64,000 nucleotides of DNA from Octopus vulgaris. Taxonomy: Eukaryota. Numbering within the stretch: position 1 is the first letter of the stretch; every line of letters starts with the position of its first letter. The DNA lies in the NCBI GenBank assembly GCA_951406725.2, contig OX597822.1:10168001-10232000 (forward strand), in the 5' to 3' direction. Positions 15,544-59,783 of the stretch are shown here, one piece after another. Position numbers and translations under genes: made by a program. The notes beneath the pieces are model-generated. The model was not told where the DNA came from. It searched no databases and saw nothing but the letters and a program-made list of their open reading frames with translations.

Positions 15544-15578
15544 ATGTCATCGTTAGCGAAAGCGAAACCGGTCGACAT
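15544..15578 (+). ncRNA. Minimal HHR-like fold with aberrant core
   Basis: atgtc ATCGTTA gc gaaa gc GAAA ccgg TC gacat. Confidence 0.45.
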
Positions 15579-15831
15579 ATAAAATACTCCTTCACTTATA
15601 GAATATATAAAAAAAATCTATTACAACTATGTAAACTGTGTGAATTTTCCACCTTTAATTTCATAAATCGTGCTGATTTATGGCAGCTTATCTTTCGACT
15701 TATTTTAGAACATGGTTGAGTCCATAAAATATGATTTGATTATACCTCCATTTAGAGCACAGATTAAGCTATCTTTTCGTGGAAGAAGGTTTATATTCCT
15801 ATAACCTGTGTTAATTCTGTAACCCTTTAAA

Positions 15832-16847
15832 ATGGAAGATAAGAAAGTTCATTTTCGGTACTTCATGCTTTTCTTTTTCCGTAAAGTATAAAATGCCTCA
15901 CAAGCAACCAAAGAAATATGCGCAGCTCACAGTGATGTTTCTTTATCTGAAAGAACTGCACGGAAGTGGTTCGCAAGGTTCAGAGCTGGAGATTGTAGCC
16001 TTATTGATAAAGAGCGATCAGGCAGACCATCCATTACAGATGATGACCAAATCAATTCATTAATTGAGAATAACCCACATTGCACAACCCGAGAATTCGC
16101 AGAAAGCCTCAACCTATAAAAATCCGTTGTTGATGAGCACCTGGTACACAAATCGCTACAACGTTTGGATACCACATGAGTTGAATGAAAAGAACCTATA
16201 GGGGGCATTTCCATCTGTGATTCGCTTTATAAACGGAATGAAAATGCGCCTTTTTTAAAGCAAATTGTGACAGGTGATGAGAAATGGATTATCTGCCGAA
16301 ATGTTCAGAGAAAGCAATCCTGGAGTAAGTGACACGAGCAACCCTTAGCCACCCCAAAAGCGGGTCTTCACCGTAAAAAATCTTGCTTTGTGTCTGGTGG
16401 GATTGGAAAGAAATTCTGTACTATGAGCTTCTCCCAAGTAACCAGACAATTAATTCTGAGAAATACTGCAAACAACTGGACGAGTTAAAAGCAGCAATTC
16501 AAGAGAAACGTCCAGAATTGGATAACAGGAAGGGTGTTGTTTTCCAACATGATATTGCAAGACCGCACGTTTCTTTGAGAACCAGAAAAAAATTGCTGCA
16601 GCTCGGCTGGGATGTGCTACTCCACCCTCCATATTCACCAGACATTGCTCCTTCGGATTTCTACTTATTCAGGTCTCTGCAGAATAGTCTTAATGGTAAA
16701 AATTTCAGTTCCTTGGATGACGTAAAAAGATACCTTGATGAATTCTTTGCCATGAAACTACCTCAATTCTAGGAAGAGGGTATTTTGAAGTTAACGGAAA
16801 CATGGAGACGCATTGCGCAACAAAATGGCTCATATTTGGTTGATTAA
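15832..16847 (+). pseudogene. Mariner (mellifera-like, DD34D) transposase pseudogene, near full length
   Basis: MEDKKVHFRYFMLF start, IVTGDEKW, LCVWWDWK, FQHDIARPH, HPPYSPDIAPSDFYLF; frameshifts and stops; putative right TIR near 16890-16921. Confidence 0.9.
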
Positions 16848-17484
16848 AAATGTAATGGCAACTATTTATTGACCTTTTTCTTTCCTTTAAAAACCGGCAG
16901 GAAATTTCCGGACTACTCAATGTATATATATATATGCATATATATAAATACATACACGTTTGTGTATGAGCCTGTGTACTCTTTAACTCTTTCGTTCTTT
17001 TACTTTACATGTTACTTACGCATATGTGTGACTGTGCGTGTGTGTGTAACGATATCGGAACGTTTATATTTAATATATATATCAAATTAATTTTACAGTG
17101 GTGACAGACATATGAATAAGGAATTATCGCACTATGATAGGTTTCGAGAAGCAATATCCTGCTGTCTGATCCTGTCCAGCAAGGAAAAGGAAGTTGACAG
17201 CAGCAGCAGCAGCAGCAACAACAACAACAACAACAACAACAACTGCCTTAATTAAACTAATAATTTTATTAATGAGAGGCTACTTGTATCACCATTAATT
17301 TCCTATATACGTTTAGAAATCCATCAGCAGGCTTGTAGGTATACGTACATATAGACATACAAACATACATACATGCAAGAAACAGGTAACTCTAAAATTT
17401 TAAACAGTTTAATACTTAAGTGATCACTGAAACGTTCTCTCAGAGGCTGCTTTTGCAAACCTATGCAAGTCTTTCTACATCTGA

Positions 17485-17890
17485 GGCGCAGGCGTGGCTG
17501 TGGGGTAAGATGCTTGCTTCCCAATCACATGGATGTATATTCAGTCCTACTGCCTGGTTCCTTGAGCAAGTGTCTTCTACTATAGCCCCGGGCCGACTAA
17601 AGCCTTGTGTGTGAATTTGGTAGACGGAAACTGATGAAATCTCGTCGTATGTGTGTGTGTGTTTGTGTCTGTGTTTGTTCCTCCTTCTACCATCGTTTAG
17701 AAACCGATGTTGGTGTGTTTATGTCCTCATAACTTAGCTGTCTGGCAAAAGGAAGTGATACAATTTGTACTAGGCTTACAAAGAATAAGCCCTGGGGTCG
17801 ATTTCTTCGACTAAAAAACCCGTTTAAGCCAGTTCTCCAACATGGCCGTGGGCTAATGACTGAAACAAATAAAAGAATAAAAGAATAAAA
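17485..17890 (+). mobile_element. SINE family B
   Basis: Full-length diverged match to 40286-40729. Confidence 0.85.
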
Positions 17891-56712: not shown

Positions 56713-57026
56713 AGAACTCCGTCGGTCAAGACGACGAGGGTCCCAGCTGATACGATCAACGGAACAGCTTGCTCGTGAAATTAGCGTACAAGTGGCTGAG
56801 CACTCCACAGACACGTGTACCCCTAACGTAATTCTCAGAGAGATTCAGCGTGACACAGATTGTGACAAGGCCGGCCCTTTGAAATACAGGTACAACTCAT
56901 TTTTGCCAGCTGAGTGGGCTGGAGCAACGTGAAATAAAGTGTCTTGTTCAAGGACACAACGCGTCGCCCCGGAATCGAACTCACGACCTTACAATCGTGA
57001 GCCGAATGCTCTAACCACTAAGCCAC
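56713..57026 (-). mobile_element. tRNA-derived SINE, family C
   Basis: Head gtggcttagtggttagagc..gagttcgattcc then gtgtccttgaacaagacact (V/CORE-like domain). Confidence 0.8.
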
Positions 57027-57233
57027 GATTCTGACAGGATTCAGATATTAAAGCTGACAGTGATTTCACTTCATTATGCACTTTTGATCGTAGAAATCGA
57101 TTTTTAGCCTGCTTCTATTTACCTGAAAGACCTAGGACCTACCAATTCATAAATATGGACGACCAATTCCACAAGTTTTGCGGATTAGCAACCATTCATG
57201 ACAACATGTTTTGATTGGGTTATTTTCCTGTAT

Positions 57234-58089
57234 ACGAGGTGGTATCAAAATGTTCCCGGACTAAATATGTTTAATAAAAAAGATAGCATATTCACCTAAG
57301 ATTTAACATCATCTCCTTCGAAATAGTCACTTTGCTCAACAATACACCGGTTCCGGTGTTCCTGCCACTTTTGGAGTCTGGTCTGGAAGTCGTTTTCCGT
57401 AAGCGAGTCAAGAAGCTTCTGCGATTCGCTTTGGATCTCGACAAAGTTGTGAAAACGGTAACCTTTGAGGTGCATTTTCATCTTGTAGAAGAGATACCAC
57501 GTTGCTTCTGCCGAGAAACTCACAAACGAGGAGAGATCGGTGACATGGTGCACTGTTGTCGTGAAGAATCCAATTCTTCGCGCTCCACAGATCAGGTCAT
57601 TTTCGATAAATGTCCTCCCCAAAAAGCTTCAAAATGGCATTGGTCGACCCCGACGATCCTCATACACAAGCTGATGAGATTTCTCCACATTTCCGAGGGT
57701 TACGATCGTGGTAGGTCTTCTAGATCACTCATTGTCCTCCAGGGACATTCTTCCGCTTTTGAAGAGTCTGCCATTCGAAACATTGTGTACGACTTATTGT
57801 CTGGTCACTGTAAGCTTGCCGAAGCATTCTCAATACTCTTGTAGCAGACTTCCAAAGTTTAACGCAAAATTTCACGTTGGCACTTTGTTCCAGCATCCTG
57901 ACAAAAAACACAGACTACAGCATACACGTGATCACAAAAGCACATCGTTCACAACTTGCGAAGTAAGCATAGTGATGACACTCGGCACACTGCCTCATGA
58001 AGATCACTGCTAGCTCTTATTGCGCATGCAACATTGTGCTGCCATCTGTTGGTGCGTTATAGCGCTAGTCCGGAAACTTTCTGATACCA
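57234..58089 (-). mobile_element. Internally deleted mariner transposon with TIRs
   Basis: MLEQSANVKFCVKL..AYSDQTISRTQCFEW and LFYKMKMHLKGYRF..CIVEQSDYFEGD; TIR core ggtatcaaaatgttcccggacta / tagtccggaaactttctgatacc. Confidence 0.88.
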
Positions 58090-59505
58090 TAAAGTGTGTG
58101 TGTGATTGATTGTGTTTGTGTGTGATTGATTATGTGTGTGTGTGTGTGTGTGTGTGTGTGTGTGTGTGTGTGTGTGTGTACGGTAATTTAGTAGTCCGGC
58201 ACACAACAATGATATTTCTAGTTTGTCTCATATTCATTCTTCTGGTGCGTGTCGACAAATGTGAATCAGCCTGGCGAGACACATCAATAAGTATTGCTTG
58301 AATGCATATGAATTTACTACATGTGCAGCTTTAATTACTACACACACACACACACACACACATAAACGCACACATACACTCACTCACACACATACACATG
58401 TACAAACATGTAAAATAAATTGTTAGAGAAACTAATCATTAGACGTGCAAGCTGTAATAACTTGCTGTTCAAATATGTTAGAGAGGGAGAGAGAGAAAGA
58501 GAGAGAAAGAGAGAGTCAGACTGACAGAGAAAGAGAGAGAGAGAGAGACAGAGAGAGAAATAGAGCGAGACAGAGAGAGAGAGTGTGTTTCTACAAATAT
58601 GTATGTACGTGAACAAATCTTATATTTCTTTAATGGACTCACGACGTCATAATCACAAGAGGGGGCTATGAGAAAATGAGACACGAATATTCTCTGCAGG
58701 AACATTCACAGACTAAATTATCTGAAATCTGAGGGATTTTCAACAGAACACTCAAATTAGCTCACACGTTGGCCTTCTTTTTTCTTTTTTACTTATATTC
58801 TTCTTTTCTTACTTTTAAGTATTATACTGCAAAACACTCGAACAAAATTATATTAATTATTTTTGCTACGCACAACATATAATTTCATATAATATAATTG
58901 GTCCTTTTTTACTTTTACAGATGCAATTTAAATGAAACCTACAAATGATTCTGTCGTAATCTGAAACTTGAATGCTTAACTGCACTACTAAGTGCGACTC
59001 GGTATTTAGTCTGGCTGACTAATTTACTCGGATCGGCTGTACGCACCTCTCTTTCAGTTGAAGATAAATATATGCAGCTACACCTGGACTCTTCGATGCT
59101 ATTCCTGCCAAATCCTTCAGTTTCTTTACCTTTTATATCTATTCTATCAATAATGACTTATTAAGAAATACAGGATTGATTGAGTGATGAATGTTATCCT
59201 TTGATATACAGTTATGTCCATTTTTACTCTGCATTTTAATCCCGCTGCAGTCGGCTTCACATTTCATTCGTCCTTCCAAGATTAACAGAAAAAAAGCAAC
59301 CTAGCAGATCTGACTAAAGTGAGTGTTCCCTGACTTGTAGACTTGTCCATTTACTAGAAATTTTATAACAAATATATCATTATCACTTTTCACTGTTGAT
59401 GTTCAGTTAGAGAATCAATCGTTTGAAGAATATTAATCATTTAAATAAAATATGTCCATCTGTGTGATGTCATCTCTGTCATGTGAATTTTAGTTAATAG
59501 AAATC

Positions 59506-59783
59506 AAACAATTGCAGCGTGGAAGGTGTTTATAAGCCATTTAAGAAACACACAAAATCCGTTACATTCATTTCAACATTTAAATTTAATTTGTCAAAAT
59601 ATTTTCGTCGCTTTGAGACAGCGACCTGTTCACTGACAGACACGGAATTTTGTCAGTGAACAGGTCGCGGTCTCAAAGCGACGAAAATATTTTGACAAAT
59701 TAAATTTAAATGTTGAAATGAATGTAACGGATTTTGTGTGTTTCTTAAATGGCTTATAAACACCTTCCACGCTGCAATTGTTT
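59506..59783. repeat. Near-perfect fold-back, 133-bp arms, 12-nt spacer
   Basis: 59506-59638 vs 59651-59783, one mismatch by eye. Confidence 0.92.
59649..59699 (+). ncRNA. Minimal type I HHR with G3-C8 core (mirror copy on minus strand at ~59590-59638)
   Basis: tttgtca GTGAACA g gtcgc ggtctcaaa gcgac GAAA atat TT tgacaaa. Confidence 0.7.

What the first reader, a model, noticed from the sequence alone, without database searches (positions are those of the whole stretch)
15544..59699. The HHR 3-8 tertiary pair occurs as C-G, U-A, G-C and possibly A-U in one window
Seen: core heptamers CTGATGA/CTGAAGA (C3-G8), TTGACAA at 43813 (U3-A8), GTGAACA at 59656 (G3-C8) and ATCGTTA at 15549 (A3-U8, but G5 and A6 also changed). 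Known: positions 3 and 8 form a Watson-Crick tertiary pair in the active fold, and compensatory swaps restore some activity. Inferred: paired changes indicate selection for catalysis, and CUGANGA-based searches would miss these families.
Basis: partly seen in the sequence, partly recalled or inferred. Interest (0 to 1): 0.75.

Follow-up and report, generated by a model that had tools for sequence, protein, structure and literature searches.

The report
All four hammerhead 3-8 pairs occur
Four jumping-gene families in this animal genome carry hammerhead-ribozyme-shaped RNAs in which one hidden core base pair is C-G, U-A, A-U or G-C as the family norm, which likely reflects selection for self-cutting RNA and means standard searches miss thousands of such motifs.

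Summary
Confirmed, and the variants are family norms, not private mutations. With the core left free in whole-genome pattern searches: U3-A8 in 95 of 95 copies (100 of 100 listed of 1,817 in the wider family), G3-C8 in 94 of 100 listed of 1,346, A3-U8 in 61 of 73; none was C3-G8. The A-U family's majority core is ATGANTA, so the window's ATCGTTA is one decayed copy (1 of 73). The other core bases are canonical, stems covary between subfamilies, and position 7 varies freely. Hosts: Penelope-like elements with RT and GIY-YIG (C-G, A-U), a 362-nt retrozyme-like repeat (U-A) and a 208-nt non-coding unit (G-C). Two sister elements, 69% identical in protein, carry A3-U8 and U3-A8. Natural U3-A8 is published; purine-3 pairs turned up in none of my searches or in a 56-motif published alignment, but three key papers were not held. 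Cleavage is untested, and the G-C copies derive from uncut RNA. This scan noted the same on other DNA of this genome: A3-U8/G3-C8 (e1-9866753) and the U3-A8 retrozyme (e1-8834929, e1-8672139).

The parts
5533..5802 (+). C-terminal remnant of a Penelope-like element GIY-YIG endonuclease frame, upstream of the C3-G8 hammerhead
   Evidence: Frame listed. Homologues in the genome extend into a GIY-YIG-type motif (motif read by eye and recalled). Pfam gave no hit for this fragment.
5933..5989 (+). Type I hammerhead motif, C3-G8 (core CTGAAGA 5940-5946), bulged nucleotide after A9
   Evidence: CTGAAGA in 22 of 30 aligned family segments, C3-G8 in 25 of 30.
15489..15672 (+). Decayed 3' repeat (pLTR) of a Neptune-type Penelope-like element, A3-U8 family
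   Evidence: 64 alignments to family loci cover the core, spanning 15489-15672 at about 69-88% identity. Longer copies carry RT thumb, cysteine linker and GIY-YIG upstream.
15545..15577 (+). Minimal type I hammerhead motif, A3-U8 (core 15549-15555). This copy has private G5C and A6G changes and is likely dead
   Evidence: ATCGTTA in 1 of 73 copies, ATGANTA in 45 of 73, A3-U8 in 61 of 73 (counted by hand).
43510..43671 (-). Inverted partial copy of the 364-nt unit (Penelope-type mirror arm)
   Evidence: Inverted repeat I3, 162 nt, 99% complementary.
43669..44076 (+). Retrozyme-like 364-nt unit plus 44 nt of a second unit (more than unit length)
   Evidence: 43 of 44 bases repeat at a 364-nt period. 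Tandem arrays of 360-364 nt elsewhere.
43807..43849 (+). Full type I hammerhead motif, U3-A8 (core 43813-43819), 6-bp stem I with predicted extension to about 43791-43864, 4-bp stem II, palindromic helix III
59506..59638 (-). Inverted arm of the 208-nt G3-C8 element with a second G3-C8 motif (core starts at 59633 on the minus strand)
59641..59835 (+). Direct arm of the 208-nt non-coding G3-C8 element, including the 3' tail that the inverted arm lacks
59649..59699 (+). Minimal type I hammerhead motif, G3-C8 (core 59656-59662), bulged G after A9, 5-bp stem II, weak all-A/U palindromic helix III

Best explanation
These are type I hammerhead motifs in the terminal repeats of several Penelope-type retroelement families, each family fixed for a different Watson-Crick pair at core positions 3 and 8, and they likely self-cleave the element's RNA as dimers, with selection on the copying master elements likely keeping the pair intact. 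Shown: the folds, the family-wide cores, compensatory stems between subfamilies, free variation at position 7, unpaired decay in single copies, and the link of the C-G and A-U families to RT plus GIY-YIG frames. From the literature: the 2'-OH of nucleotide 8, not its base, is the general acid (PMC11300833), and C3G/G8C partly rescues cleavage in a Penelope-like hammerhead (PMC11167929), so any Watson-Crick pair can in principle hold nucleotide 8 in place. Inferred: two motifs pair through the helix III palindrome, cut after position 17 and trim or circularise the RNA. The U-A 362-nt unit likely goes through an RNA circle or tandem RNA. The G-C motif is likely a slow cutter, since its inserted copies come from uncut RNA.
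For: Family cores with the core free: 95 of 95 U3-A8; 100 of 100 listed of 1,817; 61 of 73 A3-U8; 89 of 100 listed of 144; 94 of 100 listed of 1,346 G3-C8. Covariation in stems of the U-A family: 4 of 17 pairs change on both sides, 98.5% of cells paired, slid controls 24-53%. In the A-U family, 1 of 10 pairs changes on both sides in 10 of 20 rows. G3-C8 persists in older subfamilies with other loops and N7 = A, C, U or G (46 of 65). Three lineages were found without fixing positions 3 and 8, and all are paired: an A3-U8 sister subfamily, a young intact U3-A8 family 69% identical in protein (100 of 100 listed of 593), and an old family with U3.G8 (8 rows) or C3-G8 (2 rows). Dead copies decay unpaired: 87 of 100 listed non-G3 copies keep C8.
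Against: No cleavage or RNA-end data. No 3-8 covariation inside any of the three window families, so the inference rests on about five lineages. In G-C elements 95 of 111 segments start within the first 20 nt of the unit and 0 of 111 show the tail upstream on the same strand (the sample is biased to copies with a core), so templates were uncut and not permuted. That family's helix III palindrome is very weak (-0.2 kcal/mol against -7.5 and -8.3) and its bulge is G where the published consensus has H. No protein-coding partner was found for the G-C or U-A units. The young U3-A8 sister needs one inserted base (extra A in GAAA) to fit the fold. In vitro, hammerhead cleavage was not needed for insertion by a lizard element (PMC11167929), and Naiad elements spread without canonical hammerheads (PMC8557442). 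The covariation controls do not correct for relatedness, and rows in alignments A1 and A2 were picked by patterns that fix parts of the stems.
Confidence: 0.75

Rival explanations
1. The active-like tertiary fold is kept because the element's protein recognises it (template loading, RNA protection); cleavage by the purine-3 variants is negligible or incidental.
For: G-C copies come from uncut RNA, with a weak helix III and a G bulge. Catalytic mutants did not affect insertion in vitro. Minimal motifs cleave poorly in vitro. Hammerhead function in these elements is called unclear.
Against: All catalytic-core bases (U4, G5, A6, A9, G12-A14, A15.1-U16.1, H17) are kept in every family majority while N7 and loops vary. 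That matches the needs of catalysis more closely than those of a protein-binding hairpin.
Confidence: 0.17
2. Founder effect: each family descends from one master copy whose ribozyme was already dead, and the complementarity at 3 and 8 is coincidence.
For: Each family may be a single event. Single copies do decay without regard to pairing.
Against: Four lineages with both bases changed are all Watson-Crick (about 0.2 each if the bases were free, a rough estimate), and a fifth is mostly U.G wobble. Two of the four paired lineages' subfamilies were found by protein similarity alone. The rest of the core survives subfamily turnover.
Confidence: 0.05
3. The motifs are misnumbered or are another structure, so the letters called 3 and 8 are not those positions.
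For: Rfam finds no hammerhead. The A-U motif has a 2-bp stem II and its monomer fold is not stable (+2.7 kcal/mol for the window copy).
Against: Spacing of stem I, seven-base core, stem II, GAAA, palindrome and U-H is the same in all families and matches published minimal motifs. C3-G8 versions with the same stems exist.
Confidence: 0.03

Closest known systems
Minimal type I hammerheads in the pLTRs of metazoan Penelope-like elements (Cervera and De la Pena 2014, PMC4209133; parts 1-2 of 4 of the text and parts 1-2 of 3 of the supplement read)
   Same: Type I layout, palindromic helix III for dimer cleavage, place 3' of an RT plus GIY-YIG frame, inverted pairs, many solo copies, a natural U3-A8 family (about 1,300 hits in Schistosoma mansoni).
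   Different: Their 56-motif alignment has 53 C3-G8, 2 U3-A8, 1 U3.G8 and no purine at 3 (counted by hand); their descriptors fixed the core. Here A3-U8 and G3-C8 are family majorities.
Natural U3-A8 core variants (Perreault et al. 2011, PMC3088659; section 8 read, supplements searched without hits)
   Same: Covariation of the 3-8 pair in nature.
   Different: Only U3-A8 is named in that section; no purine-3 pair.
Animal non-LTR retrozymes (Cervera and De la Pena 2020, PMC7229834, passages; Li, Clavereau and Pollet 2026, bioRxiv 10.64898/2026.07.22.740005, first of five parts)
   Same: The U-A family: about 362-nt non-coding tandem units with a full type I hammerhead (mussel units are 350-390 bp), proposed to derive from Penelope-like pLTRs.
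   Different: U3-A8 core; circular RNA not shown here.
Engineered C3G/G8C rescue mutants (PAc element, PMC11167929, passages; Przybilski and Hammann 2007, recalled, not held)
   Same: G3-C8 supports some cleavage. I recall that all four pairs cleave, with a context-dependent preference for pyrimidine-3/purine-8.
   Different: Those are laboratory mutants; here the swaps are fixed in natural families with hundreds to thousands of copies.

Membership tests
Type I (minimal) hammerhead of Penelope-like elements | U4 G5 A6 N7 A9, G12 A13 A14, A15.1-U16.1, H17 | tested here: met
   Family majorities and full motifs. Not met in the single window copy at 15549 (G5C, A6G).
Type I (minimal) hammerhead of Penelope-like elements | Watson-Crick pair between positions 3 and 8 | tested here: met
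   Complementary in 95 of 95, 61 of 73, 94 of 100 listed and 25 of 30. The pair itself is inferred from sequence.
Type I (minimal) hammerhead of Penelope-like elements | Stems I and II with covariation; palindromic helix III | tested here: met
   U-A; A-U. For G-C the stems are kept while loop II and the palindrome change between subfamilies; pairs not counted on an alignment.
Type I (minimal) hammerhead of Penelope-like elements | G10.1-C11.1 pair and an H nucleotide between 9 and 10.1 | tested here: inconclusive
   G-C family: G10.1-C11.1 with a bulged G (one such case in the published alignment). A-U family: G10.1-C11.1, no bulge. U-A window copy: A-U first pair, G-C or G.U in sister subfamilies.
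Type I (minimal) hammerhead of Penelope-like elements | Self-cleavage after position 17 | not testable with these tools
   Only assembled contigs were served.
Endonuclease-bearing Penelope-like element (A3-U8 family) | RT followed by C-terminal GIY-YIG, hammerhead in the 3' repeat | tested here: met
   L302: 635-residue frame with RVT_1 (E 1.1e-6, just under the curated cut-off) and GIY-YIG (E 1.6e-6), motif about 280 nt downstream.
Neptune clade of Penelope-like elements (A3-U8 family and its U3-A8 sister) | CX2-5CxxC linker before the endonuclease | tested here: met
   C-X4-C-X2-C in L302 and L297; feature as described in PMC8557442, which also gives a linker motif to Nematis.
Neptune clade of Penelope-like elements (A3-U8 family and its U3-A8 sister) | RT phylogeny places it in the clade | not tested
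   No reference proteins were fetched; hence 'Neptune-type'.
Endonuclease-bearing Penelope-like element (G3-C8 family) | Own RT plus GIY-YIG frame upstream of the repeat | tested here: not met
   208-nt unit with a fixed 5' end and no shared upstream sequence in 30 loci or 111 segments. It inserts like one (mirror arm, one-sided tail) but is non-autonomous in this sample.
Animal non-LTR retrozyme (U3-A8 family) | Short non-coding tandem units, each with a type I hammerhead | tested here: met
   Five motifs at 360-362-nt spacing in L209; longest stop-free stretch 87 codons.
Animal non-LTR retrozyme (U3-A8 family) | Expressed as circular RNA | not testable with these tools
   No holder on record as RNA; contigs only.

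The most novel reading that the evidence does not exclude
Penelope-type elements of this genome have explored the whole 3-8 pair space, including purine-3 pairs not reported in nature and a direct A-U/U-A flip between sister elements. They use the pair as a rate dial: the one family with the full loop-loop architecture (the retrozyme) keeps pyrimidine-3/purine-8 for fast cutting and circle formation, while minimal motifs without those contacts tolerate purine-3, and the very successful G3-C8 element uses a deliberately slow ribozyme so that uncut RNA is left for copying.
Probability: 0.3. Interest if true: 0.75.

Novelty: new variant of a known kind. Interest (0 to 1): 0.55.

Why it matters
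The C3-G8 pair forms in the active hammerhead fold and was established by structure and laboratory swaps. Natural families fixed for all four pairs are an evolutionary confirmation and a ready set of constructs for asking whether Penelope-type elements need cleavage at all, which is an open question. In practice, descriptors based on CUGANGA or YUGANRA miss at least 1,346 G3-C8 and 144 A3-U8 exact pattern matches here (lower bounds), so ribozyme counts in animal genomes are likely too low.

Tried and rejected
Rfam scan of the whole window: microsatellite noise, no hammerhead among the 150 of 235 rows shown; narrow scans of the three motifs found none. Repeat finders were swamped by microsatellites. 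My first descriptor missed the bulged G-C and C-G motifs and was widened. The first DNA search was biased to the query's core and was replaced by core-free patterns. A search for a coding partner of the G-C and U-A units in flanks found only neighbouring fragments of other Penelope-like elements, in L022, L076 and L083, which I rejected as chance neighbours. An unbiased 1-Mb sample gave 7 descriptor hits (4 C-G, 1 U-A, 2 mismatched; background about 1.5) plus 6 G-C-family matches in 4 loci by BLAST, too few for a 16-cell test. Expression: no RNA holder listed. Contigs of four runs cover both the U-A and the G-C stretch and list no other letter at positions 3 or 8, but the U-A table was cut and contigs cannot show ends; not used as evidence. 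The old U.G/C-G family shares only the 50-nt motif with the G-C family (76-80%), not flanks, so common descent is not claimed. A circular-permutation model for the G-C unit was tested and not supported. Papers not held: Lunse et al. 2017, Przybilski and Hammann 2007, Martick and Scott 2006, Arkhipova et al. 2017, Seehafer et al. 2011, Lee and York 2008, Scott et al. 2013. Any of them, or figures and bioRxiv supplements I could not see, may already show purine-3 variants. The search on the extra G gave nothing relevant.
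Full report
Setting. The window is G000:C9:10168001-10232000 of a 2.8-Gb, microsatellite-rich animal genome; octopus-like is my inference from size and repeat content, not a tool result.

Observation. TTGACAA at 43813, GTGAACA at 59656 and ATCGTTA at 15549 are there. A descriptor with positions 3 and 8 free shows each inside a type I hammerhead layout with a palindromic helix III. The G3-C8 motif has a mirror twin at 59633 on the minus strand. A C3-G8 motif lies at 5940. No CTGATGA site passed the descriptor; decayed members of two further C3-G8 families lie at 32987/15388 and 52248. 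The heptamers alone are frequent in the window; the fold is not: 15 hits in ten shuffles of 1 Mb, and 0 hits for every reversed pattern in the genome.

Are the variants family norms? I searched the genome with flanks fixed and the core free; counts below were made by hand from the listed rows. U-A: 95 matches, 93 TTGACAA, 95 of 95 U3-A8. A looser pattern gave 1,817 matches, 100 of 100 listed U3-A8, with N7 = A, C, U or G. A-U: 73 matches, 33 ATGATTA, 10 ATGAATA, 45 ATGANTA, 61 A3-U8, 0 C3-G8, and ATCGTTA only in the window's own copy. A looser pattern gave 144 matches, 89 of 100 listed A3-U8. G-C: 1,346 matches, 84 of 100 listed GTGAACA, 94 G3-C8, 0 C3-G8. C-G at 5940: CTGAAGA in 22 of 30 aligned segments. 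Single copies decay without regard to pairing: of 135 G-C-type copies lacking G3, 87 of 100 listed keep C8. So pairing was kept in the lineages that were copied, not in inserted copies.

Signs of selection on the fold. In 20 U-A rows (chosen from 44 distinct sequences) 4 of 17 pairs change on both sides, in stems I, II and the helix III palindrome; 98.5% of cells pair against 24-53% for slid controls. In 20 A-U rows one stem I pair swaps G-C/A-U between two subfamilies while A3-U8 stays. These rows were picked by patterns that fix parts of the stems, and the controls ignore relatedness. Older G-C subfamilies with other loops keep G3-C8 (46 of 65 matches). In the same search 8 rows are U3.G8 and 2 are C3-G8. 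Those fetched belong to an old family that shares the motif's stems but not its flanks.

Host elements. A-U: longer copies carry RT thumb, cysteine linker and GIY-YIG upstream. L302 has a 635-residue frame with RVT_1 and GIY-YIG hits and the motif about 280 nt downstream; the linker is C-X4-C-X2-C, as described for Neptune. The protein search also found a young intact family, 69% identical over 631 residues. Its 3' motif has U3-A8, the same helix III palindrome and one extra A in the GAAA: 593 matches, 100 of 100 listed U3-A8. So sister elements differ by an A-U/U-A flip; the direction is unknown. U-A at 43813: a 364-nt unit plus 44 nt of the next, with a mirror arm, tandem arrays at 360-364 nt, no frame over 87 codons, and an extended stem I (z -2.6). 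This fits animal non-LTR retrozymes. G-C: a 208-nt unit. 95 of 111 segments start in its first 20 nt, ends fall at two places (about 145-155 and about 205), and none shows the tail upstream on the same strand; mirror arms lack the tail, a Penelope-type trait. No coding partner was found. C-G at 5940: 3' of a GIY-YIG-type remnant.

Mechanism. The 2'-OH of nucleotide 8 is the general acid (PMC11300833, passages); its base pairs with nucleotide 3 (PMC3088659). Single C3G or G8C mutants of a Penelope-like hammerhead lose cleavage and the double mutant partly regains it (PMC11167929, passages). Metazoan motifs with a palindromic helix III are thought to act as dimers and cleave weakly in vitro (PMC4209133). 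I infer the same here: dimer formation through the palindrome (self-duplex -7.5 and -8.3 kcal/mol for U-A and A-U, only -0.2 for G-C), a cut after position 17, and trimming or circularisation of the RNA. Against a simple picture: G-C copies retain what lies upstream of the cut site, so they were copied from uncut RNA; cleavage was dispensable for insertion in vitro; some clades lack the motif. I put 0.75 on selected, active (perhaps slow) ribozymes, 0.17 on a fold kept for protein recognition, 0.05 on founder coincidence, 0.03 on misassignment.

Known or new. U3-A8 in nature is published. The 56-motif alignment of PMC4209133 has 53 C3-G8, 2 U3-A8, 1 U3.G8 and no purine at 3. Full-text searches for G3-C8/A3-U8 wordings and for octopus or cephalopod hammerheads returned no natural purine-3 case; the one G3-C8 mention is a laboratory variant (PMC3884650, passages). 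PMC11014351, PMC6257768, PMC6155905 and PMC6765202 were seen as passages or term searches only and added nothing on this. Seven relevant papers were not held, so 'not in print' is not established. Rfam detects none of the three motifs. Earlier notes of this scan report A3-U8 and G3-C8 families and the U3-A8 retrozyme on other pieces of this genome. My family-level reading was written before those look-ups, and they are not independent support.

Verdict. Real, correctly read by the first stage, a new variant of a known kind. Interest 0.55.

Noticed in passing
L297:1896-4154 (-) and copies L296-L309; G000, 593 pattern matches: Young, intact Neptune-type Penelope-like family (frames of 750-780 residues) whose 3' hammerhead has U3-A8 and needs one inserted base: an extra A in GAAA, or alternatively G17 with a bulged C.
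   Followed up: partly
L255, L257, L321, L322, L329, L335: Old low-copy family with the same hammerhead stems as the G-C family but U3.G8 wobble in 8 rows and C3-G8 in 2; a possible intermediate on the way from C-G to U-A.
   Followed up: partly
window 15383-15445 (+) with mirror arm near 15360-15400 (-), and 32982-33045 (+): Decayed copies of another hammerhead-like family with C3-G8, a long stem II, an extra base before GAAA and a hairpin helix III; one lies about 100 nt upstream of the A-U copy.
   Followed up: partly
window 52244-52275 (+): Decayed copy of a common minimal C3-G8 family (CTGACGA core); intact relatives in L146, L164, L030, L084.
   Followed up: partly
L259 (G000:C4:108448500-108455500), minus strand, about locus 5875-6345: Frame with a signal-peptide-like start and two dibasic-flanked GLGGGRF-G repeats, resembling a cholecystokinin/sulfakinin-type neuropeptide precursor (label recalled).
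   Followed up: no
window 36437-36607 and 37713-37883: 171-nt inverted repeat with CTGATGA in both arms but no GAAA half; possibly another Penelope-type mirror insertion.
   Followed up: no
window 3553-4667, 16377-16772, 28701-30417, 45480-48766, 57287-57844: Broken frames resembling non-LTR reverse transcriptases and mariner-type transposases (labels recalled from motifs).
   Followed up: no
L022, L076, L083 flanks: Fragments of other Penelope-like RT frames directly beside U-A or G-C units; nested insertion or chance.
   Followed up: no
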